From contig CAZTSX010000007.1 of NCBI GenBank assembly GCA_964616825.1, positions 40,248 through 104,247 on the forward strand: DNA of 64,000 bases. Direction: 5' to 3'. Of this stretch, positions 1,262-49,811 are shown one piece after another. The translations under genes were made by a program, and so were the position numbers. How positions within the stretch are numbered: the first letter of the stretch is position 1; every line of letters begins with the position of its first letter. Under the pieces are notes generated by a model. It was not told the DNA's origin. It made no database searches and saw only the letters and a list, made by a program, of their open reading frames with translations. The stretch is from an uncultured Prolixibacteraceae bacterium. GTDB lineage: Bacteria; Bacteroidota; Bacteroidia; Bacteroidales; FEN-979.

Positions 1262-3931
1262 TTGAGATACAGAATCCTGATAACAATTCTTTTTTGTCTT
1301 AGTTCCATGACAGGATTCTCCCAGGGTTCATGGAATCCGGCCGGAGCTGATCCCTCTTTTCCCCGAACCTTGCTTGATACCACTCAGATCGGCACGATCA
1401 GAAATACCCTGTCGGATACGAAGATTTATGATCTCTATCAGCTGGTATGGGACAACGCCAATAGCGATATTCCAGCAGGAAACACTACCAATGGCGAACG
1501 GGGCACGCGGGCACTGATCGCCAAAGAGGCAGCTTTTGTGGCACTCATGGATAGCAAACCTGTATTTGGAAATATCATTCCGTTAACTATTCAGGAGCGC
1601 GAACAGCTTAAGGTGAAGAGCAAACAATTGCTTGAGGAGATCAATACAGCAGTTGGTTTTCAGTCGGGATGGATCTTTTACCAAGAGTGGCAAAACCGTT
1701 CGAAGGAGCTGATCAACTATTTAATTGCGTATGATCTTTTACAAGCTACCGATTCCACAGTCTTCAGTCTGCAGTCTGCAAAAGATTCGTTGATTACATT
1801 CACCGCCCATCTCTATCACCGGGCAATGGCGACATATACGGTTTATTTCTGGCATTTTAAATTCTTCGAATTTCAGTTCAACAATCATAGCATCATGACA
1901 GCTTCTGCACTTGGACTGGCTGCTATCTTATTCAATGATTACGAAAATCCTGATCCCGACTACCAGCCACAAAACTGGATCGATGCCGGGTTATGGAACC
2001 TCGACAACACGCTCTTTCGTGAAAACGGCATCTATCCAAGATGTTCTGAACCGGATACGATTGCCGGATATGCTGAAGGGCCCGGCTATTTTGAATACGG
2101 TTTTGAGAATGCGTTCCCCTTTATCCGCGCTTTCTGGAATTTTCTCCCTGACGGGTACTATTCGATGACGTTTAATGCCGTAACCCGCGATATTCGAAAT
2201 CCCTGGTATGACCCCAATTATGATAACCTGTATGAGTGGATGAACCTCATCCGGATGCCTGATGGTAGCTCACCGGCTATTCATGATAGTCCGATCGGCT
2301 TCGGGACCAGCATCACTTCTTTGTCCGGAAAAAGTCGTTTTAACATTCCAAACCTCTCCTATCCGCCAACCGATGCCATGTGGCGCACCCAATATATTGC
2401 TTCGAACGTGCCGGAAGGCTCTTTTTCAGACACGCTGTTCAGAGCCCTCCCTGAAGCCGGCTCGGTAATTTTTCGCTCCTCCCACGATCGGGACGCAGTT
2501 TTCATGCACTTCATCGGAAAACATGACATTCCGCTTAGTGGTGCGAAAGCCCATCACCAGGGAGATGCCAGCAGTTTCTCAATCATGGCAAACGGCGAAC
2601 TGCTGGCTGTTGATCCCGGATATTCCGGTTACCAGGAGTCGTTTGCCATTAACCAGGCATCTAACCACAGTCTTGTATTGATCAATGGTTCAGGTCCCTT
2701 GCCACCCATCGGAGAATTTGTTAGCGTTGAAACCAACACCTGCTGGATCGAAAATTTCTTCAACACCCCACTGCTGGATTATGGGGAAGTACGAACCGCA
2801 TACTTTGACGCTGATATCATCCGGAAAAACCTGTTTGTACGGGATCGCTATTTCATCCTCTCCGATTTCCTCTCCTCCCCCGACCTGAATACCTATACCT
2901 TCCAGGTACAGGGAAACGGACTGATCGGAGGAACTCCCGGGACTCCGGAAGGAGTTTTTACGCCCGATTTCACTAACCATCAGGGTATCTATTCCAGGGA
3001 TTCGACACAATTACTCGTCCATACGACTGTTACCGATGGTGCTGATAGCTATACCTATACAATGGATAGCCTGGCCACAGGCACCAGCCAGTACCGTCAT
3101 TACAGCAAAATGCTGGTCCGGAAAGACAGTGTGGAAAACACACAATTCCTCTCCGTCCTGTTCCCGTTTAAACAAACAGAACCCGATGTAGTTACACTGC
3201 AAACACAACCGGGAATCAATGCGATCATGATTGAAGATGGGAATAATCAAGACCTGGCCTTCACACAGGAAGACTCCTCGCTTGTGGAGATCCCGTTGAG
3301 TATCAGCGGATTTCAAAACAATATTAAAGGCAATGGAGCAATGAATTTCATCTCTTTTTACACGAACTCCTTTCACTCGCTTTTTCTGGAGCATGGAGAT
3401 TCAATGATAGTCGGGAGTCATCTCTATATAAAAGCAGATCACCTTATTGATGTTGCATATCAGCACACAAATGATCTGCTGCATCAGGGATATGTGAGTG
3501 ATGCCGGATGGGTCGGATTCAGGACTGCTACCCCAGGGCATTTCATCCCTACTTCAGGAAACATTATCACATATACTTATGATTTCGATAATTCGCTCCT
3601 CATGGTGCTGTTTGGCGGACCGTCGAATTTCATTCTTGAATACTCTACTGGTGAAGGTGATCGCCCTGGAGAGAATCAGAACGATGAGATCCTCATCAAG
3701 AAGCTTGGAAATGGAAACTATGAGATGGTCATCAACAGTGATCGTTCAGAAGATGGGTTGATATCCATCTACGCTGTTTCCGGAAAGAATGTGTTGACAA
3801 GAAACGTTCATCTGTATCCCGGATCCAACAGCTACAGGTTTGATCTTTTCCGGTTTTCTGATGGACTCTACTTGATTTCCATAGCTTCTGACGCAAAGCA
3901 ATTCTCAACAAAACTTATCCACAACAACTAA
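1262..3931 (+). CDS. secreted heparinase II/III-like polysaccharide lyase-family protein with T9SS C-terminal sorting domain
   Basis: 889-aa ORF with a TTG start and signal peptide MRYRILITILFCLSSMTGFSQ. HHQGDASSFSIMANGELLAVDPGYSGY resembles the heparinase II/III C-domain signature. The last ~80 aa (LISIYAVSGKNV...LYLISIASDAKQFSTKLI) look like a T9SS CTD. Confidence 0.6.
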   Translation: MRYRILITILFCLSSMTGFSQGSWNPAGADPSFPRTLLDTTQIGTIRNTLSDTKIYDLYQLVWDNANSDIPAGNTTNGERGTRALIAKEAAFVALMDSKPVFGNIIPLTIQEREQLKVKSKQLLEEINTAVGFQSGWIFYQEWQNRSKELINYLIAYDLLQATDSTVFSLQSAKDSLITFTAHLYHRAMATYTVYFWHFKFFEFQFNNHSIMTASALGLAAILFNDYENPDPDYQPQNWIDAGLWNLDNTLFRENGIYPRCSEPDTIAGYAEGPGYFEYGFENAFPFIRAFWNFLPDGYYSMTFNAVTRDIRNPWYDPNYDNLYEWMNLIRMPDGSSPAIHDSPIGFGTSITSLSGKSRFNIPNLSYPPTDAMWRTQYIASNVPEGSFSDTLFRALPEAGSVIFRSSHDRDAVFMHFIGKHDIPLSGAKAHHQGDASSFSIMANGELLAVDPGYSGYQESFAINQASNHSLVLINGSGPLPPIGEFVSVETNTCWIENFFNTPLLDYGEVRTAYFDADIIRKNLFVRDRYFILSDFLSSPDLNTYTFQVQGNGLIGGTPGTPEGVFTPDFTNHQGIYSRDSTQLLVHTTVTDGADSYTYTMDSLATGTSQYRHYSKMLVRKDSVENTQFLSVLFPFKQTEPDVVTLQTQPGINAIMIEDGNNQDLAFTQEDSSLVEIPLSISGFQNNIKGNGAMNFISFYTNSFHSLFLEHGDSMIVGSHLYIKADHLIDVAYQHTNDLLHQGYVSDAGWVGFRTATPGHFIPTSGNIITYTYDFDNSLLMVLFGGPSNFILEYSTGEGDRPGENQNDEILIKKLGNGNYEMVINSDRSEDGLISIYAVSGKNVLTRNVHLYPGSNSYRFDLFRFSDGLYLISIASDAKQFSTKLIHNN

Positions 3932-3977: not shown

Positions 3978-4541
3978 TCATTCTTCTAACAGGTACATCT
4001 TCAATCCTTTTTCATCAACCGGTTCGATTAGCATTTTTTTCAGCGTTTCATAACTTCCAAACCGTTCATGAATCTCCTTTTTTGCAATCAGGGTAGGGTG
4101 TGGACTGATCGTGGCCCGGAACGAAGAGTATCGATACCACTCACAATTCGACACGACCCCATGCTTCCTTGGATTCTGATTGATATATCGCATTACATTA
4201 CACAATACTGCCTCACGGCGGATTTCGATCCGTTTTAGCTTGAAACGAAACAATTTCCCTATATGCCCGGTTTTGTTCACAAAACCCTTCGCATATGAGT
4301 TGAAAAGCAGAGCAAATGGCTTGTACGAATTCCCGTTAACCTCCTCTTTCATTCTGATCAGAAAATGAAAATGGTCGTCGAGAATGCAATATGCCCAGGT
4401 GTCGGCTACAGGCACAATATGCCTTTTGTATAGCTTCAGGAAGAAATGATAGTCCTCCTCTTTCGGAAACAATGGGTCCCCGTTTCTTGTCCGGTTATAA
4501 ATGTGATAAAATTTTCCCGGTTCCAGAATAATGGTTTTCAT
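3978..4541 (-). CDS. REP-associated / IS200-like Y1 (HUH) tyrosine transposase, solitary
   Basis: HUH motif DDHFHFLIRM and the Tyr region RYINQNPRKHG are present. There is no adjacent tnpB and I saw no terminal hairpins. Confidence 0.75.
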   Translation of the reverse strand: MKTIILEPGKFYHIYNRTRNGDPLFPKEEDYHFFLKLYKRHIVPVADTWAYCILDDHFHFLIRMKEEVNGNSYKPFALLFNSYAKGFVNKTGHIGKLFRFKLKRIEIRREAVLCNVMRYINQNPRKHGVVSNCEWYRYSSFRATISPHPTLIAKKEIHERFGSYETLKKMLIEPVDEKGLKMYLLEE

Positions 4542-4552
4542 AGCTTTTTTTA

Positions 4553-4587
4553 CCCATTAATCCGGAAAAGAGGCAAAAGGTTATACG
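4553..4587 (-). repeat. copy a of the conserved motif TATAACCTTTTG-N8-CCGGATTAATGG
   Basis: The reverse complement reads cgTATAACCTTTTGcctcttttCCGGATTAATGGg. It ends 11 nt upstream of the transposase ATG at 4541. Confidence 0.8.
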
Positions 4588-4747
4588 TTGTGGCAACGTT
4601 TTTTATTAACAACTTAGGGATTAAAGGCGATCCCGAAGTTTTTATTCATGAACTGTGAGGTGCGAATAGATCCACAATATCAGGCTGGATAGCCTCTGTG
4701 GGATTCAGCTGATTGAATCAGGGTAGAAAAATATTGTTCGGTGCAGA

Positions 4748-5248
4748 TTAATTTTCCCGGAGAATGTGGTCGTCATACTCAATCTCAAAACTGAGTTTAT
4801 GCTTCGACTCCTCCTGAGCCAAGAGAAGAAACATCTCCCGCATTTCGGGCTGTTGAGCCCGGTCGGCCAGAGCCGTATAGAGTTTGAAAGCCGCTTTCTC
4901 TTTCTTCATAACCAGGATCAGGGCCTCTTCATAGGACATATCCGGCCTGTATTTCACATCCACAAGATAGTCAGAAAGTTTCATGTCTACTACTTTCTCG
5001 GTTCCAAAGACGGCAGCGCCATCCGCCTTCACCTCCATAAGCTTGGCTTTATGAGCCATCTCCTCTTTTGCAAACTCATGAAATGCCTTTTTAATACTCT
5101 CATTCTTAGACAGGTTCGCCAGTTTCAGATAAAAATCCACGGCAGCTTGCTCTTCCCCGATTGCAAAATCGAGTACATCATTGATGTTATTGAATTCTTT
5201 CATAGTTATATGTTTGTATTTGTTTGTTGCTGGTTTCTTGTCCCTCAT
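4748..5248 (-). CDS. ferritin-like / rubrerythrin-family diiron four-helix-bundle protein without a rubredoxin domain
   Basis: The helices EEQAAVDFY, AKEEMAHK, KKEKAAFKLY and AQEESKHK give an E...ExxH x2 pattern. No CxxC pair is present. The ATG at 5246-5248 overlaps the upstream stop codon (ATGA). An alternative start is Met16 at 5203. Confidence 0.7.
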   Translation of the reverse strand: MRDKKPATNKYKHITMKEFNNINDVLDFAIGEEQAAVDFYLKLANLSKNESIKKAFHEFAKEEMAHKAKLMEVKADGAAVFGTEKVVDMKLSDYLVDVKYRPDMSYEEALILVMKKEKAAFKLYTALADRAQQPEMREMFLLLAQEESKHKLSFEIEYDDHILREN

Positions 5249-8200
5249 ACCCTTAAACGTTCTTCAAATTCTTCTTCAAACCGCTTCACCAGGTAATCGC
5301 ATCCGTAATCAAATGAACGATTTAGGTTATCCTCCCTGGTATAAACCATCGCGAGGCTCTCTTCGGGCTGGTCCTCCTCAACATGCGGGAGCAACCGGAT
5401 GATCTCGCTAAAGACATCGTTGCGGCTTTCAAGGCCGTTCAGACCAAATCTTTTCAACAGTTCGATGAACTGCATGATGGAAGAGATCTCAATCCGGGAA
5501 GGCAATACAGGTTCAAATTCAAGAATAGCTTTTTGTGTATTTGAAAACGTGCCGCCAATCTCGGTGGGGAAGGAAGCCGGTAATATCAGGTCTGCTTCTT
5601 TTGCTGTGTCGGTCATAAAATAGTCCTGAACCACAATGAAGGGAATTTGTTTGATCAGAGAAGAATAGGTCTGGGTGGTGTCGCAACCAACCGGATCTTC
5701 ACCGAAAATAAACAGGTTCTTCATTATTTTTTTTGATAGCTTCAGTACCAGGCAATCCGCAACAATTCCCGGTATATCCTTAACATTCCACACATCTTTC
5801 AGTTTCTTGACATATGCTTCATCATCAAGAGGAATTCCTCCAACACCTGTACGACGACTGATTCCCATATCGAACAGGCCCTGAGAGTTATTCTTCTCCT
5901 TGAGTGTGATTAGTCCGTTGGCTGTTTTTCCGAGTTTACCGGTAATCATCGCCAGGTTGAACAGTTCCAGGGAGCTGTTGCTGGTGATCTCTTTTTCTGA
6001 GAAGATAGCGATGGCATTCATCTCAGTATTATACTCTTCAGCGAATTTCCTGATAACTTTTGGCAACACACCAGCATTGGATACCAATGTTGCAAAGTCT
6101 TCTTCCAAAATCTGAAGCTGGTACTCATTCTGTCCGATCACACGATCGCGGAGGAATAAATCGTTTTCTAACCCAAAGGTAAGCAGGTAGTGGTTAACCG
6201 CTTTGATGAAGTAATAATACGACTTCACGTGGATCACCTGATCGACCTTGTGAGTCATCGAACTCTCCTCCTTTTCGGTAACCAGAATTACCGGAATACC
6301 CTCTTTGGCCCGGGCATTATTCACCATGAATCCGGCCACAGCGTGATCCATGTTAATATCTGTCCCAATAAGGAAGATCTTCCCGGCTTTTCGGATGCTG
6401 TCAAGGGGTGCATTCTTTTGATGATTGAACCTGTATCCATCACCCCGTGTGAGGTAATGAAATGATCCAATATTGCCTGTCACGACTGCGGCACGTGCCA
6501 GTTTCTGGATCAGGTACATCTCTTCGTTTGTGAGCCTGGCTCCTGCAAAAAAACTATTTTCATCAGGCTTGACAGCACTGATTTTCTCAACGATTAACTT
6601 GAATGCTTCTTCAAAACTGATTTCCTTAAATTTTCCGTTAATCTTTTTTAACGGCCTGACTATCCGGCTCTTATCATTAAGATAAGCGTATCCAAAGCGA
6701 GGATATCTGCAGATATTGCCCTGTTGGTTCACCACTCCTTTGTTTCCGGAAACACTCATCACAAAGCCGTTGACCTGATTCAGCGTGATCGAACAGCCGA
6801 TTGAACAATAATTGCAGATTGCTTCGGATGGAGTTGTCTGAACCGGCCCGGGCTTGAACAGAACGTTCTCGGTGATCGCTCCTGTCGGACATGTTGAAAT
6901 ACACATCCCACATGATTCACAATTAGTATCCTGCAAGGCTTCTCCCATACTGGGTGAGACAAAAGTTTCAAAACCTCTGTTGACCAGTCCCAGGGCATTT
7001 GCGCCAACCACATCCCGGCAAATTCGGACGCAGCGTGAGCAAAGGATGCATTTATTGTTGTCGATCTCGATATATGGATGGCGGAAATCGACAGCATATT
7101 CGTTGAATTCACCAGCGAATCCTTTCTGGTCAGCATTGTATTCTGTCGAATACTTCTGCAGATCACAATTGAAAAAAGCTGTGCATCCGCATTCGAGGCA
7201 ACGTTGTGTTTCGTGAATTGCCACCACTTCATCAGCGTATCCCAACTCAACCTCATGGAAGTTCATCCGTTGATCAGCTTCCAGCACCGGCATCTCTTCG
7301 CGCTCCTGGGCAATAAACAGATCCTGATAATCTTCCTGAACTTGTGTCCTGAAATTATTGCGCCGGCTAATAAAGGGTTGTTTCAACGGTTTGATCTCAT
7401 CGCCCACCAGGTATTGGTGAGCACTATTTGAAGCAATTTTAGCCTGGGCTATCGCTTCGATGATGGTAGCCGGACCGGTAACGCCATCCCCTGCTGCAAA
7501 AACCGATGGAATACCGGTTTGTAATGTCTCTCTGTCGGCATCAATATCAGCCCACTTATTAACTTCAAGCTTATCGCCTTCGGTATTGGCGTTGATATCA
7601 TCGAGGAAATTCACGTCTGTCTTCTGACCAATGGCAGCCAGGACGTAATCTACGTTGAGTTCAAATTCAGATCCTTCGATTGGTACCGGCCTGCGTCGTC
7701 CCGAAGCATCAGGTTCTCCCAGCTTCATTTTAATACAGGTAACTGATTCCACCTCCCCTTTGTTATTCTTGTTGATCTTTTTAGGAAGTGTAAGAAAGAG
7801 ATATTCCACTCCTTCAAGTTTTGATTCATGGATCTCGATGGGATTGGCAGGCATCTCATTCTCTGTACGACGGTAAATCACATAGACGTTATCCGCCTTG
7901 CATCGCAATGATGTACGGCAACAGTCCATGGCCGTATTTCCTCCTCCGATGACAGCAATGGATTTGCCGCGGAAATCATACCGTTGTCCGGTCATCTCCA
8001 TGTTCTTCAGAAAATCGATCCCTGAGAAAACGTTTTCTGCATCATCCCCTTCACACCCTACACCTGTCCCAATCTGAGACCCGATGGTCAATATCACGGC
8101 ATCGTATTTATCTTTCAGCTCTTGATAGCTAAGGTTCTCTCCTAATTTCTGGTTGTAGAATATATTCATACCCAGATCGGTAATATTCTTCACCTCTTTG

Positions 8201-31212: not shown

Positions 31213-32154
31213 ATGAGCGAGAAAATAATCCGGATTGAGTCGGTTGACCCCTTAGAGATTTTTGGCATCAATGATCAGAACCTTGAGGAGGTACGAAACT
31301 TCTACCCGAAACTGAAAATCGTCGCCAGAGACAATGAAGTCAAGGCTATTGGCGAAAAGTCCATTCTCCTGGATTTCGAGGAGAAATTCACAACTTTAAT
31401 TCTCCATCACGAAAACTTCGGAAGGCTGACAAAAGCGGATATTTCATACCTGCTGAGTGCTGATAATGGAGATAAACCTTTGCAGAAGGAGGGGCATCAC
31501 AAGGAGGTGCTTATCCACGGGCGAAATGGGTTGCTGATACGGGCCCGGACTCCCAACCAGCAAAAGATGGTTGAGGCTGTTGATCAAAATGACCTGATGA
31601 TTGCCATTGGTCCGGCCGGAACAGGAAAGACATATACGGCAGTAGCTCTGGCTGTAAGAGCGTTGAAGAACAAAGAGGTGAAGCGTATCATTCTTACACG
31701 TCCAGCTGTGGAGGCCGGAGAAAACCTCGGATTCCTGCCGGGTGACCTGAAAGAGAAACTGGACCCTTATTTACAACCTCTGTACGACGCACTTCGAGAT
31801 ATGCTCCCTACACAAAAGCTTCTCGCATTCCTGGAAGATGGAACAATTGAAGTGGCTCCTCTTGCTTTCATGCGAGGCCGAACCCTGAACAATGCATTCG
31901 CTATCCTCGATGAAGCTCAGAATACAACCCCCGGCCAGTTAAAGATGTTCCTGACACGGATGGGAGCTTCCGCCAAATTCATCGTCACCGGCGACATCAC
32001 CCAGATTGATCTGCCGGAGAAACAGGTATCCGGCCTGATCCAGTCACAAAGCCTGTTGAAAGATATCCCCGGTATCTCTTTCGTCTATCTCGATGAAAAA
32101 GACATCATCCGGCATAAGCTGGTAAGCCGGATCATCAATGCATATGGAAAATGA
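31213..32154 (+). CDS. phoH: PhoH-family ATPase
   Basis: Walker A IGPAGTGKTYTAVALAV, plus ILDEAQN and GDITQIDL. Confidence 0.9.
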   Translation: MSEKIIRIESVDPLEIFGINDQNLEEVRNFYPKLKIVARDNEVKAIGEKSILLDFEEKFTTLILHHENFGRLTKADISYLLSADNGDKPLQKEGHHKEVLIHGRNGLLIRARTPNQQKMVEAVDQNDLMIAIGPAGTGKTYTAVALAVRALKNKEVKRIILTRPAVEAGENLGFLPGDLKEKLDPYLQPLYDALRDMLPTQKLLAFLEDGTIEVAPLAFMRGRTLNNAFAILDEAQNTTPGQLKMFLTRMGASAKFIVTGDITQIDLPEKQVSGLIQSQSLLKDIPGISFVYLDEKDIIRHKLVSRIINAYGK

Positions 32155-32272
32155 TGGTGATGTGGTGATGTGGTGGTATGGTGGTGTGGTGGTATGGTGG
32201 TATGGTGGTATGGTGGTGTGGTGGTATGGTGGTGTGATGGTGCAATGGTGCGATGGTGCAGTGGTGCAGTGG
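32153..32272. repeat. tandem array, exactly 15 x 8 nt (TRTGGTGG drifting to TGCAGTGG)
   Basis: The units were read in register from the phoH stop codon to 5 nt before the four-helix-bundle stop. The first 88 nt contain no C. Confidence 0.95.
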
Positions 32273-32276
32273 TGAG

Positions 32277-32642
32277 TTATTTTTTTAGACTTTTCCGGGT
32301 TTTAGCGAGAACCATTAGAATCCTAAGTGTTTCTTCTTTTAATGGATAAATTGCCTTCTGATCAATCCATCCAGTCTCTTCAATCATCTCTAACCAAAAA
32401 AGGGTTTCATCACATTCCTCAACAACAATACACAACTTTGCATAATGCTCTGCTTTGGATCTGGCCCGGCAAGATGCCCGGAAGTTTGCAGCTACTGAGC
32501 TACTACTACGAATAATTTGTTTCCCGATAATCCGCAACTCTTCTCGATTTTTCATTTTAGCATATAACTTAATAACGTTAATGGCCATCTGCTTTGTTCT
32601 TTTTCTGAACTCATCATTAAACGATTCTCTTACTTGTTCCAT
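32277..32642 (-). CDS. four-helix-bundle protein (23S rRNA intervening-sequence protein family)
   Basis: IIRSSSSVAANFRASCRARSKAEHYAKLCIVVEECDETLFWLEM is typical of the family. Confidence 0.8.
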   Translation of the reverse strand: MEQVRESFNDEFRKRTKQMAINVIKLYAKMKNREELRIIGKQIIRSSSSVAANFRASCRARSKAEHYAKLCIVVEECDETLFWLEMIEETGWIDQKAIYPLKEETLRILMVLAKTRKSLKK

Positions 32643-32689: not shown

Positions 32690-32714
32690 TATAAAAAAAT
32701 CAATATTAGTTTTT

Positions 32715-32745
32715 CACCATGGCTCCATGGCACCACGGCACCATT
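32715..32745. repeat. tandem array, 4 x 8 nt (CACCAYGG), the inverse complement of the 32244-32274 units
   Basis: Reads caccatgg ctccatgg caccacgg caccatt. Confidence 0.8.
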
Positions 32746-32784
32746 AAAATATATATCTTTGCGAAAACAAAATAGCAGACCAAA

Positions 32785-39597: not shown

Positions 39598-39650
39598 GAT
39601 TCCTGCTTTTTTCCAGTAAAAATAAAAATTTACATGAACATATCCTCGTC

Positions 39651-39713
39651 CCACCATCCAATATCCAACATCTAACATCCAACATCTAACATCCGGCATC
39701 CAACATCTCATTT
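39651..39713. repeat. tandem array, 9 x 7 nt (CYAACAT)
   Basis: Reads ccaccat ccaatat ccaacat ctaacat ccaacat ctaacat ccggcat ccaacat ctcattt. Nearly G-free on the plus strand. Confidence 0.9.
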
Positions 39714-39730
39714 TTCTGTACCTTCGTTCC

Positions 39731-41029
39731 ATGAAGATCGAGATCATCAACATCGGCGATGAGATCCTCATTGGACAGGTTGTCAATACCAACGCAGCCT
39801 GGATGGCGGAGGAGCTGAACCGGATTGGGTTCAAGGTGTTTCAGTTCACGGTAATTTCTGATAAGCGTGAACACATCCTTCAGGCTTTGACTGATGCTCA
39901 GAACCGTGCCGATCTGGTCCTGGTCAGCGGGGGTATCGGACCGACCAGAGACGACATCACCAAACAGACCATTTGTGAGTTTTTCGATACAAAACTGGTG
40001 TTCAATGAAGATGCTTTCCGCGATATTGAGACCCTCTTCGGTCAACGGGGATATAAAATCACCGAGGTAAACCGCAAACAAGCTGAGTTGCCAGAAAATT
40101 GTATCTCACTGCCTAACCGAATGGGAACCGCGAGAGGGATGTGGTTTGAGAACAAAATGAAATTCGAAATTCGAAATTCGAAATTTGAAAATAAAGAATC
40201 GTGGATCGCGGATCCCAGATCCCAAATCTTTGTGTTTTTACCAGGTGTCCCGTTTGAAATGAAGGATCTTTTCACCCGTGAGGTCATCCCACGTTTGAAG
40301 GAACGGTTCACTCCACAGGTAATCTATCATAAAACCGTTATGACACAAGGTAAAGGCGAGTCGTTTATGGCTGATATCATAGAGGAGTGGGAGAACAACC
40401 TGCCTGAGCACATCAGCCTTGCTTATCTCCCTCAACCGGGGATTGTCCGGCTCCGGTTTACCGCCGTGGGCGAGCAGCAGGATGAGCTGGAGAAAGAGGT
40501 CGATAACGAGATCCGGAAGTTACACAAACTCATTCCCGATCTGATATTCGGATATGATACGGATACCCTGGAAGCGGTTGTCGGACAGCTCTTAATGGTG
40601 AAAGGTCAATCGCTCGCCACGGCGGAAAGCTGCACCGGCGGATATATTGCTCACCTGATCACATCCATTGCAGGCAGTTCCAGTTACTTTAAAGGATCAA
40701 TAGTCGCTTACTCTAACGAAGCCAAAGAGAATATCCTTTATGTGAAAGAGGATAGCCTGGTCGCACACGGAGCTGTGAGTCAGCAGGTAGTACTTGAGAT
40801 GGCCCTGGGAGCACGGGATCGTTTCAGAACCGATTATTCAATTGCTACTTCAGGGATTGCCGGTCCAACAGGAGGAACCCAGGAAAAACCGGTTGGAACT
40901 GTTTGGATTGCCATTGCCACACCCGAACGGGTTTTTGCTAAGCAATACCTTTTCGGAGATCACCGGGAACGAAATATCAGAAGAACGGCTTTGCAGGCGT
41001 TGAATTTGTTGCGGAAAGAGATGTTGTGA
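39731..41029 (+). CDS. cinA: CinA-family protein (MoCF-like domain plus PncC-type nicotinamide-nucleotide amidohydrolase domain)
   Basis: MKIEIINIGDEILIGQVVNTNAAW..., C-terminal TAESCTGG and SGIAGPTGG motifs. At 432 aa it carries an extra loop segment. Confidence 0.9.
   Translation: MKIEIINIGDEILIGQVVNTNAAWMAEELNRIGFKVFQFTVISDKREHILQALTDAQNRADLVLVSGGIGPTRDDITKQTICEFFDTKLVFNEDAFRDIETLFGQRGYKITEVNRKQAELPENCISLPNRMGTARGMWFENKMKFEIRNSKFENKESWIADPRSQIFVFLPGVPFEMKDLFTREVIPRLKERFTPQVIYHKTVMTQGKGESFMADIIEEWENNLPEHISLAYLPQPGIVRLRFTAVGEQQDELEKEVDNEIRKLHKLIPDLIFGYDTDTLEAVVGQLLMVKGQSLATAESCTGGYIAHLITSIAGSSSYFKGSIVAYSNEAKENILYVKEDSLVAHGAVSQQVVLEMALGARDRFRTDYSIATSGIAGPTGGTQEKPVGTVWIAIATPERVFAKQYLFGDHRERNIRRTALQALNLLRKEML
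40155..40230. repeat. two adjacent heptamer arrays (GAAATTC x4, GGATCNC x3) lying in frame inside cinA
   Basis: Reads aaattcgaaattcgaaattcgaaatttgaaaat...gtggatcgcggatcccagatcccaaatc. It encodes KFEIRNSKFENKESWIADPRSQ. Confidence 0.85.
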
Positions 41030-41110
41030 TAGCCCCTAAATCCCCTAAAGGGGACTTACTGCACCCCTTCCAGGTATGAAAATTAAAAATGTCTATCTTT
41101 CAATTTTTAC

Positions 41111-47385: not shown

Positions 47386-47483
47386 ATACAAGACTTTTTC
47401 GTCAATGGAAATTGACAATTCGTAGAATTTGTTTTTCCTCTGAGAATAATTGCGTTTACTTTCGGGCATCAAAGAAATTAATC

Positions 47484-49543: not shown

Positions 49544-49786
49544 CTACCTCACCAAAACCAATTTCTTCGTTGCCGTTTTGTTCCTGGCATTTACCCTGCA
49601 AACATAAACCCCTGCCGATTACGATCCTGCATCCCAAATATACCGGTTTGCGCCTTTATACCCATTGAGAGAAATTTCATCAACAACCTGCCCGAACTGG
49701 TTATATATCATGATCTCCACTTCTCTTGGTTTCTCAAATTCAAACTCAATAGTTGTTGAATAAGAGAATGGGTTCGGATAATTCGC
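49544..49786 (-). pseudogene. orphan 3' remnant of a T9SS-cargo gene (C-terminal sorting domain only, with an internal stop)
   Basis: Minus-strand translation gives NYPNPFSYSTTIEFEFEKPREVEIMIYNQFGQVVDEISLNGYKGANRYIWDAGS*SAGVYVCRVNARNKTATKKLVLVR*. There is a TAA at 49619-49621 and no upstream coding body. Confidence 0.65.
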
Positions 49787-49811
49787 AATTCGTAAATCGA
49801 AAATTGAAATG
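49780..49811. repeat. degenerate tandem array, ~4 x 7 nt (AATTCGN)
   Basis: Reads aattcgc aattcgt aaatcga aaattga. The same unit family occurs in the cinA insert and at 47409-47436. Confidence 0.65.

What the first reader, a model, noticed from the sequence alone, without database searches (positions are those of the whole stretch)
40155..40230. An intergenic-type heptamer array sits in frame inside the conserved cinA gene
**Seen.**
- Between GMWFE and FLPGVPFEM, cinA contains aaattc-gaaattc-gaaattc-gaaattt-gaaaata followed by ggatcgc-ggatccc-agatccc-aaatc.
- These are two heptamer arrays of the same kind as the intergenic ones. The AATTCG unit recurs at 49780-49811 and 47409-47436.
- Three heptamers make 21 nt, so the peptide itself repeats (KFEIRNS KFEN...).
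- The ORF stays open at 432 aa.

**Established, from memory of CinA sequences.** The segment between the GMWFE-like motif and LPGVP is normally only about 6-8 residues. About 20 residues (60-70 nt) here look extra.

**Inference.**
- The arrays can arise or insert within genes.
- This copy survives because it is a multiple of 3 in a surface linker between the MoCF and PncC domains.
- That argues for an active insertion or expansion process, not passive decay of spacers.
Basis: partly seen in the sequence, partly recalled or inferred. Interest (0 to 1): 0.65.

Follow-up and report, generated by a model that had tools for sequence, protein, structure and literature searches.

The report
In-frame heptamer repeat tract in cinA
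A run of 7-base tandem repeats really does sit in frame inside the conserved enzyme gene cinA of this marine Bacteroidales bacterium, and relatives show it is one allele of an old, fast-changing repeat tract at the tip of a tolerant surface hairpin, not a recent insertion or a working part of the enzyme.

Summary
cinA (39731-41029, 432 aa) carries (GAAATTC)x3+GAAATTT+GAAAATA at 40159-40193 and GGATCGC/GGATCCC/AGATCCC/AAATCTT at 40203-40230, in frame. That is 21 codons more than the canonical Bacteroidota loop.

- **Frame:** intact in four independent metagenome runs and in 13 protein variants, all 432 aa.
- **Position:** The tract is the disordered tip (residues about 141-165) of a beta-hairpin inside the N-terminal MoCF/COG1058 domain, not an inter-domain linker.
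- **Age:** it is not specific to this genome. Almost every sampled orthologue in the clade (down to about 65% identity) has a composite heptamer tract at exactly this site, with different units and lengths (10-57 residues in the variable segment). Two nested orthologues lack it. A second clade gained an inverted pair of arrays at the same site. One lineage has a REP-like palindrome there.
- **Rate:** flanks are 89% identical while inserts are unalignable. Units share an nnCGArr / GGATCCN register, which points to concerted evolution. Within populations the length is fixed.

Best reading: a neutral coding-region heptanucleotide repeat tract turning over by slippage and recombination. Selection keeps only versions that preserve frame, lack stops and encode hydrophilic peptide. 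A non-local copying process is not excluded.

The parts
39731..41029 (+). cinA coding sequence, 432 aa: N-terminal MoCF/COG1058-type domain, KH domain, C-terminal CinA/PncC (NMN deamidase-type) domain
   Evidence: ORF. Pfam PF00994 at 4-190, PF18146 at 200-274 and PF02464 at 278-431. Model matches T. thermophilus CinA 4uux/4ct8 with TMq 0.79 and E about 1e-39.
40151..40225 (+). Variable hairpin loop, residues 141-165 (NKMKFEIRNSKFENKESWIADPRSQ). It has 21 codons more than the canonical 4-residue turn.
   Evidence: Alignment A1. Loop lengths across 90 loci. pLDDT below 50 for 143-162 between strands 136-141 and 165-170. PDB 6mr3 aligns to 1-137 and 166-431 only.
40159..40193 (+). Left heptamer array: GAAATTC x3, GAAATTT, GAAAATA. 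In CGA register the unit is TTCGAAA. Encodes EIRNSKF-type peptide.
   Evidence: Orthologous arrays are GACGAGG (L081), AGCGAGA (L083), GTCGAGG (L084) and GACGAAG (L086).
40203..40230 (+). Right, degenerate heptamer array: GGATCGC, GGATCCC, AGATCCC, AAATCTT.
   Evidence: Homologous GGATCCG array in L081 and GGATCCA/GCATCCA arrays in L084, L085 and L088.
39651..39707 (.). Intergenic CCAACAT-type heptamer array (about 8 units) between the divergent saccharopine-dehydrogenase-like gene and cinA. Same class of repeat; units within one mismatch of the CATCCAG/CATCCGG arrays found inside cinA of other genomes.
   Evidence: Conserved at the orthologous place in L081/L082. K-mer depth 3-8 times that of the flanks in four runs.
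40252..40438 (+). Polymorphic haplotype patch that starts about 20 bp downstream of the array. It has 32 substitutions (about 17%) in the X7 contig and half-depth unitigs in X1, X3 and X5.
   Evidence: P0121, P0133 and the window differ in this stretch while the insert is identical. A comparable divergent tract surrounds the array in L088 vs L092.

Best explanation
The segment is a coding-region heptanucleotide simple-sequence-repeat tract. It is the in-gene form of the period-7/8 tandem arrays that litter the intergenic DNA of this and related Bacteroidia.

**Shown.**
- It occupies the solvent-exposed, disordered tip of a beta-hairpin in the N-terminal MoCF/COG1058 domain of CinA.
- The tract is old: almost every sampled orthologue of a clade reaching about 65% identity has one at exactly this site.
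- It evolves far faster than its flanks.

**Inferred mechanism.**
- Slipped-strand mispairing or unequal exchange duplicates and deletes 7-nt units.
- A mutated unit spreads through its array (concerted evolution). This explains why orthologous arrays keep a common register (nnCGArr on the left, GGATCCN on the right) but differ at the same unit positions throughout.
- Selection passes only versions that meet four conditions:
  - the net length is a multiple of 3 (plus or minus 1 or 2 units truncates the protein at 147-181 aa; plus or minus 3 is tolerated);
  - the units are stop-free in all three frames;
  - the sense translation is hydrophilic;
  - the fold is undisturbed.
- Alleles also move between strains by homologous recombination, with tract ends near the array.

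**Functional reading.** The tract is most likely a neutral passenger with no role in CinA catalysis.
For: **The array is real and in frame.**
-.

**A lineage-wide bias toward period 7 and 8.**
- In the window, lag 7 gives 6 arrays and lag 8 gives 4. Lags 4-6 and 9-13 give 0-1 each; lag 14, twice 7, gives 2.
- Across 675 kb of Bacteroidota loci, lag 7 gives 74 and lag 8 gives 27, against 2-15 at other lags.

**Same codon position, different units, in ten fetched orthologous loci.**
- L081, L083-L088 and L090; L095, L097, L099, L102 and L103.
- Variable-segment lengths (between GMWFE and IFVFLPGVP) run from 3 to 57 residues.
- In the tree, insert-less P0018 and P0020 nest inside the insert-bearing clade.

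**Rate contrast.**
- Flank nucleotide identity is 0.89 for window vs L081 and L083.
- Global insert identity is 0.37-0.51.

**Concerted evolution, read.**
- Left units: TTCGAAA (window), GACGAGG (L081), AGCGAGA (L083), GTCGAGG (L084).
- Right units: GGATCNC (window), GGATCCG (L081), GGATCCA/GCATCCA (L084).

**Structure.**
- The loop at 143-162 has pLDDT below 50 and lies between strands 136-141 and 165-170.
- The rest of the model matches solved CinA.
- The solved homologue 6mr3 lacks the segment.

**Selection filter.**
- Slips of 1 or 2 units give products of 147-181 aa. Slips of 3 units give 425 or 439 aa.
- All sense units are stop-free.
- Sense peptides are hydrophilic (EIRNSKF, TRDEGRG, GSGIRDP). 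Antisense peptides are hydrophobic.

**Recombination.**
- L088 and L092 differ at only one position (1226) in the 4.4 kb upstream of cinA. Differences are confined to the 4388-4890 patch around the array and a short intergenic stretch at 5448-5501.
- A divergent haplotype patch at 40252-40438 abuts the window's array.

**Literature.**
- Heptanucleotide repeats are the most abundant long simple-sequence-repeat class in many prokaryotes. Polymerase slippage on about 7 nt has been proposed (Mrazek et al. 2007, as summarised in PMC4679880; also PMC4692102).
Against: - **No slippage variants seen within populations.**
  - Thirteen variants of the window's protein are all 432 aa.
  - The P0022 cluster shows only a C-terminal length difference (431 vs 435 aa), and the P0055 cluster is essentially constant (442 aa, one 441).
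  - Logan contigs cannot reveal rare variants.
- **Local slippage does not explain unit sharing within a genome.** The same unit appears in cinA and at a distant locus:
  - L086: CTGCAAA at 2794-2838 and 4492-4535.
  - L088: GCATCCG at 551-605 and 4534-4597.
  - Overall 2 of 42 within-locus pairs share a unit, against 0.25% of between-locus pairs (p = 0.005).
  - Other loci in the window's metagenomes match its GAAATTC array at 33 of 36 bases.
- **Three things at this loop are hard to derive from in-situ slippage:**
  - the second clade's inverted pair of arrays (L003, fold z = -4.8);
  - the REP-like palindrome in L100;
  - two separate gains at one loop.
- **The period is unexplained.** Why it is 7 or 8 is not addressed by anything tested here.
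Confidence: 0.62

Rival explanations
1. **Non-local origin.** Arrays and other small repeats are delivered to or renewed in this loop by a copying process. This could be ectopic gene conversion from arrays elsewhere in the genome, or a transposition-like or template-switch insertion of pre-formed repeat modules. The CinA hairpin would then be a recurrent landing site, where selection happens to tolerate the cargo.
For: - Identical units occur in the cinA tract and at distant loci of the same genome in L086 and L088. Sharing within loci exceeds sharing between loci (p = 0.005).
- The window's own AATTCG-type array at 49779-49810 is a further, weaker case.
- Extra loci in the same metagenomes, at genome-like depth, match the GAAATTC array.
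- A second clade nested among short-loop orthologues has an inverted pair, (GCATCCN)n plus (NGGATGC)n, at the same site. It folds with z = -4.8.
- Inverted array pairs also occur intergenically, for example L029 755-848 and L037 4231-4328.
- L100/L173 carries the REP-like palindrome GGGGCAGGTTCCAAACCTGCCCC in the loop. The same element lies intergenically in L088, L091 and L092.
Against: - No target-site duplication or conserved terminal sequence is visible at the insert borders.
- Orthologous alleles in the window's subclade share register and core (nnCGArr, GGATCCN), as expected for descent in place.
- The left array core resembles the native purine-rich loop codons of short-loop relatives (L001 gagaaggagcgcacgggagatgg). 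A local seed is therefore plausible.
- The unit-sharing statistic rests on 2 events.
- L173 shows no further copy of the palindrome in 18 kb.
Confidence: 0.22
2. **Functional element.** The tract is kept for one of two reasons. Either a variable disordered loop benefits CinA, for example through partner binding or oligomer control. Or the non-triplet repeat acts as a contingency (phase-variation) switch that turns full-length CinA on and off.
For: - The tract has persisted across a deep clade.
- The 7-nt unit means single-unit slips truncate the protein after the hairpin, at 147-181 aa.
- The sense-strand peptide is always hydrophilic.
Against: - There is no peptide-level conservation at all between alleles.
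- Two nested lineages do without the tract (P0018 and P0020).
- No frame-broken or length-variant alleles appear in three populations or four runs. The one short member, P0123, is only a C-terminal fragment at a contig break.
- CinA is a cytoplasmic housekeeping-type enzyme, not a surface or restriction-modification gene.
- No Rfam family overlaps the region.
Confidence: 0.07
3. **Artefact or chance.** The periodicity is a coincidence of codon usage or an assembly error.
For: The short lag-7 signal at 1751-1782 inside the heparinase-like ORF turned out to be ordinary coding sequence with no length change. Weak lag-7 hits can therefore be incidental.
Against: - Three perfect units plus two near-units are present.
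- Shuffles give about 0 arrays.
- The sequence is identical in four independent runs.
- Orthologues carry much longer arrays at the same site.
Confidence: 0.01

Closest known systems
Long simple sequence repeats of prokaryotes, heptanucleotide class (Mrazek et al. 2007, as summarised in PMC4679880 and PMC4692102)
   Same: - Head-to-tail 7-nt units.
- A genome-wide excess of period 7 over neighbouring periods.
- Mostly intergenic and close to gene ends.
- Slippage is the proposed engine.
   Different: - The literature describes such repeats as under-represented in coding regions. Inside genes, multiples of three are the favoured unit lengths.
- Here a non-triplet tract sits in the middle of a conserved enzyme domain.
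- It has persisted there across a whole clade, as a composite of several unit types.
TAACTGA heptamer direct repeats of Beggiatoaceae, Cyanobacteria and some Bacteroidetes (MacGregor 2015, PMC4679880)
   Same: - Heptamer direct repeats, mainly just upstream or downstream of genes.
- They also occur in Bacteroidetes.
- A few sets lie within ORFs, where they translate to a 7-residue peptide repeat.
   Different: - The unit sequence is different and not fixed here.
- The intragenic TAACTGA sets sit at protein termini or in hypothetical proteins, not in an internal loop of a conserved enzyme.
- No orthologue series showing turnover was described.
Cyanobacterial STRR heptamer repeats (Calothrix/Nostoc; recalled from memory, mentioned in PMC4692102)
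   Same: Tandem heptanucleotides of several unit families dispersed through a genome, of unknown origin.
   Different: - A different phylum and different unit sequences.
- Membership was not tested beyond unit sequence.
Rickettsia palindromic elements inserted in frame in protein genes (Ogata et al. 2000; recalled from memory, not checked here)
   Same: - Selfish or neutral repeat DNA tolerated in frame at surface positions of conserved proteins.
- The encoded peptide has no conserved function.
- One CinA lineage (L100) does carry a palindromic dispersed element in this loop.
   Different: - RPEs are 100-150 bp elements with a conserved consensus and are not tandem arrays.
- The window's tract has no dispersed consensus, and its hairpin potential is only local (z = -2.1).
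Contingency loci (phase-variable simple sequence repeats of Haemophilus, Neisseria and others; e.g. PMC12721329)
   Same: A non-triplet repeat unit inside a reading frame, so unit gain or loss shifts the frame.
   Different: - No on/off variants were seen.
- The gene class is atypical.
- The tract is mid-gene rather than near the 5' end.
- Copy number is low (3 perfect units).

Membership tests
CinA (three-domain COG1058/MoCF - KH - PncC type) | N-terminal MoCF_biosynth-type domain, CinA_KH domain and C-terminal CinA/PncC domain, in this order | tested here: met
   Pfam PF00994 (1.1e-33), PF18146 (3.4e-09) and PF02464 (3.6e-57).
CinA (three-domain COG1058/MoCF - KH - PncC type) | Fold matches solved CinA structures | tested here: met
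   The AF2 model (pLDDT 85.5) matches 4uux, 4ct8 and 4cta with TMq 0.79-0.80 and E about 1e-39. phmmer hits to 6mr3 and 4ct8.
CinA (three-domain COG1058/MoCF - KH - PncC type) | ADP-ribose pyrophosphatase and NMN deamidase activities | not testable with these tools
   This needs an enzyme assay.
Prokaryotic long simple sequence repeat, heptanucleotide class | Head-to-tail tandem copies of a 5-11 nt unit, longer than chance allows | tested here: met
   TRF period 7, 4.6 copies, 96% matches. Shuffles give about 0 arrays.
Prokaryotic long simple sequence repeat, heptanucleotide class | Genome-wide over-representation of that period | tested here: met
   In the window, lags 7 and 8 give 6 and 4 arrays; lags 4-6 and 9-13 give 0-1 each and lag 14 gives 2. 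Across 675 kb of related loci the counts are 74 and 27 against 2-15.
Prokaryotic long simple sequence repeat, heptanucleotide class | Copy-number change by slippage between related strains | tested here: inconclusive
   Orthologues differ widely in copy number. Three populations with 9-13 variants each show no change in tract length. Rare variants are not visible in contigs.
Contingency (phase-variation) locus | Non-triplet repeat inside the reading frame | tested here: met
   7-nt unit. Slips of 1 or 2 units truncate the product at 147-181 aa.
Contingency (phase-variation) locus | On and off length variants co-exist in populations | tested here: not met
   No gaps or length variants in 4 runs. 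All 13 full-length cluster members are 432 aa. P0123 is a contig-break fragment.
In-frame dispersed palindromic element (RPE-like) | Dispersed element with a conserved consensus, found at many loci | tested here: not met
   The window's tract shares only short units with other arrays. Alleles have no common consensus. The feature is met only for the L100 allele.
In-frame dispersed palindromic element (RPE-like) | Insertion in a surface position compatible with the fold | tested here: met
   Disordered hairpin tip, with the rest of the model intact.
TAACTGA repeats / cyanobacterial STRR | Specific unit sequence (TAACTGA; STRR consensus units recalled from memory) | tested here: not met
   The units here are GAAATTC and GGATCCC. 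None of the units listed is TAACTGA.

The most novel reading that the evidence does not exclude
Period-7/8 arrays in Bacteroidia would not be mere slippage debris. They would be made or copied by a dedicated, still unknown process, such as templated copying, ectopic conversion or template switching.

Such a process would do three things:
- spread unit families between loci of one genome;
- build inverted array pairs;
- repeatedly seed the same permissive sites.

The CinA hairpin would be a natural reporter of its activity. Arrays might also act as recombination tract boundaries.
Probability: 0.15. Interest if true: 0.8.

Novelty: new variant of a known kind. Interest (0 to 1): 0.45.

Why it matters
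- **A natural time series of repeat evolution.**
  - Heptamer repeats are the commonest long simple repeats in many bacteria, yet their origin and the reason for the 7-nt period are unexplained.
  - Here one codon position in a conserved, easily aligned enzyme carries dozens of different composite heptamer alleles across a clade.
  - The series is anchored by unambiguous flanks.
  - It allows birth, homogenisation, replacement and loss to be counted.
  - It makes the choice between local slippage and non-local copying directly testable.
- **A practical point for protein work.** This CinA hairpin tolerates 3 to 57 residues of arbitrary hydrophilic sequence, so it is a candidate permissive insertion site.
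- **A warning for annotators.** Low-complexity peptides in conserved proteins of these genomes can simply be translated repeat DNA.

Tried and rejected
- **Left and right arrays as arms of one hairpin.**
  - The window insert folds only into two local hairpins (z = -2.1).
  - Other alleles range from z = -1.9 to +1.4. Only L003 is clearly palindromic, at z = -4.8.
  - Rejected as a general feature.
- **Palindromic cores in units promote slippage** (TTCGAA, GGATCC).
  - 8 of 75 units contain a 6-bp palindrome, against 7.5 expected.
  - Rejected.
- **A 144-aa cluster member (P0123) as a frameshifted allele.**
  - It is the C-terminal part of the protein, called at a contig break caused by the polymorphic patch.
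  - Rejected.
- **A second in-gene insertion at 1751-1782** in the heparinase II/III-like ORF.
  - Homologues align there without any length change.
  - It is not an insertion.
- **Known RNA family in or near the tract.** None at E of 1 or below.
- **The genome-contig scan.** Close orthologues had to be fetched one by one and from metagenome contigs.
- **More copies of the L100 palindrome nearby.** None in 18 kb.
- **One literature search failed** on term length.
Full report
**1. What is in the sequence**

The ORF 39731-41029 (+) is open for 432 aa. It has the three CinA domains: MoCF_biosynth at 4-190, CinA_KH at 200-274 and CinA at 278-431.

Between GMWFE and IFVFLPGVPFEM the DNA reads as follows:
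- GAAATTC three times (40159-40179), then GAAATTT and GAAAATA (to 40193).
- A 9-nt spacer (40194-40202).
- GGATCGC, GGATCCC, AGATCCC and AAATCTT (40203-40230).

TRF scores the first array at period 7, 4.6 copies and 96% matches. The second array is degenerate but passes a lag-7 test.

The periodicity is not chance.
- In the window, lags 7 and 8 give 6 and 4 arrays. Lags 4-6 and 9-13 give 0-1 each; lag 14, twice 7, gives 2.
- Shuffled sequence gives about 0.

- 49779-49810 is a weak period-7 array with AATTCG-like units.
- 47409-47436 is not an array.

**2. Is the segment extra, and is the frame real?**

| Group | Residues from GTAxG to PGVP | Source |
|---|---|---|
| Canonical, across 80 Bacteroidota genomes (e.g. 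MWFEKDGKVYVSM) | 13 | |
| Group at about 60% identity | 18 | |
| Window | 34 | |

So 21 codons (63 nt) are extra.

The solved homologue 6mr3 aligns to residues 1-137 and 166-431 and skips the segment.

Independent data agree on the frame.
- Contigs from three marine or seawater metagenome runs cover 39600-40251 with no difference and no gap.
- A fourth run covers the whole gene without gaps.
- The 90% cluster holds 13 distinct full-length variants, all 432 aa. The two that were read carry the same insert.

**3. Where it sits in the protein**

The AlphaFold model has mean pLDDT 85.5. It has strands at 136-141 and 165-170 joined by a loop with pLDDT below 50 at 143-162. The rest of the model superposes on Thermus thermophilus CinA (4uux, 4ct8) at TMq 0.79.

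The tract is therefore the tip of a beta-hairpin inside the N-terminal domain.

**4. Comparative picture**

Homologues at 65-99% identity vary from 409 to 464 aa, and all the variation is at this site. I fetched the DNA of ten orthologous loci and more from metagenome contigs.

At exactly the same codon position each has a composite of heptamer arrays with its own units:

| Locus | Arrays at the site |
|---|---|
| L081 | (GACGAGG)n + (GGATCCG)n |
| L083 | (AGCGAGA)n only |
| L084 | (GTCGAGG)n + (GGATCCA/GCATCCA)n |
| L086 | about 11 GACGARG-type units + (CTGCAAA)4 |
| L087 | three arrays |
| L088 | four arrays, 57 residues in the variable segment |
| L090 | about 10 CATCGCR units |

Further points from the tree and alignments:
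- P0018 (L089) and P0020 have no tract and nest inside the clade. They are best read as losses.
- A second clade (P0055, P0085, P0103, P0110; loci L003, L005, L113) nests among orthologues with a stable 9-residue loop. It carries an inverted pair, (GCATCCN)n then (NGGATGC)n, at the same site. That pair folds as a strong hairpin in L003 (z = -4.8).
- In L100/L173 the loop holds a REP-like palindrome, GGGGCAGGTTCCAAACCTGCCCC. Relatives of this palindrome lie intergenically in L088, L091 and L092.

**5. Tempo and mode**

Flanking coding DNA of window vs L081 or L083 is 89% identical. The inserts align no better than 0.37-0.51.

Yet the alleles of the window's subclade share a register.
- Left arrays are nnCGArr: TTCGAAA, GACGAGG, AGCGAGA, GTCGAGG.
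- Right arrays are GGATCCN.
- Differences are carried by every unit of an array (read). This is the signature of concerted evolution by slippage or unequal exchange.

The left core also resembles the native purine-rich loop codons of short-loop relatives (L001). A local seed is therefore plausible.

Within populations the tract is stable.
- All 13 variants in the window's cluster are 432 aa.
- The P0022 cluster differs only at the C-terminus.
- The P0055 cluster is essentially constant in length.

One strain pair is informative. L088 and L092 differ at a single position (1226) in the 4.4 kb upstream of cinA, yet their tracts differ in length (174 vs 135 nt) and their right arrays use different units (GCATCCG vs CTGCCAA).
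- The differences form a contiguous patch at 4388-4890 that includes flanking synonymous changes.
- The only other differences are in a short intergenic stretch at 5448-5501.
- This looks like an imported recombination tract rather than in-situ change.

In the window's own population, a divergent haplotype patch of about 17% begins 20 bp after the array, at 40252-40438.

**6. Selective filter**

- Slips of 1 or 2 GAAATTC units truncate the product at 147-181 aa. Slips of 3 units give 425 or 439 aa.
- All units used in cinA are stop-free in the three sense frames. About 69% of all heptamers have this property.
- Sense translations are hydrophilic (EIRNSKF, TRDEGRG, GSGIRDP, HPASSIQ). Antisense translations would be hydrophobic. 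This fits an exposed, disordered loop.

**7. Background**

Across 675 kb of Bacteroidota loci, period-7 arrays number 74 and period-8 arrays 27. Other periods give 2-15. Many of these arrays lie just before the start or after the stop of cinA.

The literature already records three relevant points (PMC4679880 summarising Mrazek et al. 2007; PMC4692102):
- Heptanucleotide repeats are the most abundant long simple-repeat class in many prokaryotes.
- They are mostly intergenic and under-represented in coding regions.
- Polymerase slippage over about 7 nt was proposed as the cause.

PMC4679880 also describes TAACTGA heptamer repeats in some Bacteroidetes, with a few intragenic sets at protein termini.

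**8. Interpretation**

The best-supported reading (0.62) is a neutral, long-lived, fast-evolving heptanucleotide repeat tract in a permissive hairpin. It is maintained by slippage plus concerted evolution, filtered by selection, and shuffled by recombination.

The main rival (0.22) is a non-local copying or insertion process. It is supported by:
- same-genome sharing of units (2 of 42 within-locus pairs against 0.25% between loci, p = 0.005);
- extra loci in the metagenomes that match the GAAATTC array;
- the inverted-pair allele;
- the palindrome allele;
- two gains at one loop.

It is weakened by the lack of any insertion signature and by the shared register of alleles.

A functional or phase-variable role is unlikely (0.07). 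There is no peptide conservation, there are nested losses, and no on/off variants were seen.

An artefact is excluded.

**9. Verdict**

- The feature is a new variant of a known kind: a coding-region long simple sequence repeat with a non-triplet unit.
- Its main value is as a natural series for studying how heptamer arrays arise and turn over.
- Interest 0.45.

Noticed in passing
window 32152-32278 and 32712-32746, with gene 32277-32642 (-): A 127-bp period-8 array, (TGGTGGTR) about 15 times, and a short inverted partner, (CACCATGG)-like, flank a 121-aa gene of the 23S_rRNA_IVP / four-helix-bundle family (PF05635, E = 2e-14). The gene is wedged between a PhoH-like gene and purC. GGTGA-type period-8 arrays recur in other loci (L081 1-71, L083 81-130, L085 1594-1636).
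   Followed up: partly
window 41028-41078: Just after the cinA stop codon, the stretch cccctaaatcccctaaaggggactta... has about 6-10 times the k-mer depth of its flanks in four metagenome runs. It is therefore a dispersed small repeat.
   Followed up: no
window 40252-40438: Two haplotypes about 17% apart co-exist in the population (half-depth unitigs; X7 carries the other allele). The patch begins 20 bp downstream of the array, which suggests that recombination tracts end at the array.
   Followed up: partly
window 39651-39707; L081 3934-3983: The CCAACAT-type intergenic array upstream of cinA is conserved in unit and position between genomes whose cinA left arrays have completely different units. 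Its units are within one mismatch of the CATCCAG/CATCCGG arrays found inside cinA of L084 and L088.
   Followed up: partly
L100 1909-1983 (= L173 about 7211-7285): In this lineage the CinA loop holds a perfect REP-like palindrome (aggggcaggttccaaacctgcccct, peptide RPVGAGSKPAPD) instead of heptamers. The same element occurs twice in the intergenic DNA downstream of cinA in L088, L091 and L092.
   Followed up: partly
L086 2794-2838 (inside gene 2629-3897, -); window 1751-1782: CTGCAAA/CAGTCTG-type period-7 signal lies inside structured coding sequence without any length change. One case is the T9SS C-terminal domain of a Kelch protein; the other is a heparinase II/III-like protein. Both give AVGSLQ-like peptides. 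The L086 array has the same unit as that genome's cinA right array.
   Followed up: partly
L088 5448-5501 vs L092: Apart from the cinA patch, the only other divergent spot between these near-identical strains is a cluster of REP-like hairpins (gggcgggttccaaacccgccc) that are rearranged or inverted between the two.
   Followed up: no
L081 4421-4479, L084 4418-4464, L085 4448-4491, L088 4418-4528: Many left arrays are GGGNNNN units on the sense strand (GGGACGA, GGGTCGA, GGGCTCA), with four or more G3 tracts at 4-nt spacing. These are potential G-quadruplex formers like the GGGAATC repeats of Xanthomonas (PMC4692102). The window's own array is not of this type.
   Followed up: no
L001-L092 and window (675 kb): Period-7 arrays (74) and period-8 arrays (27) far outnumber periods 4-6 and 9-12 (2-15) across many Bacteroidia genomes. 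They often lie within 50 bp of the cinA start or stop, and sometimes occur as inverted pairs (L029 755-848, L037 4231-4328).
   Followed up: partly
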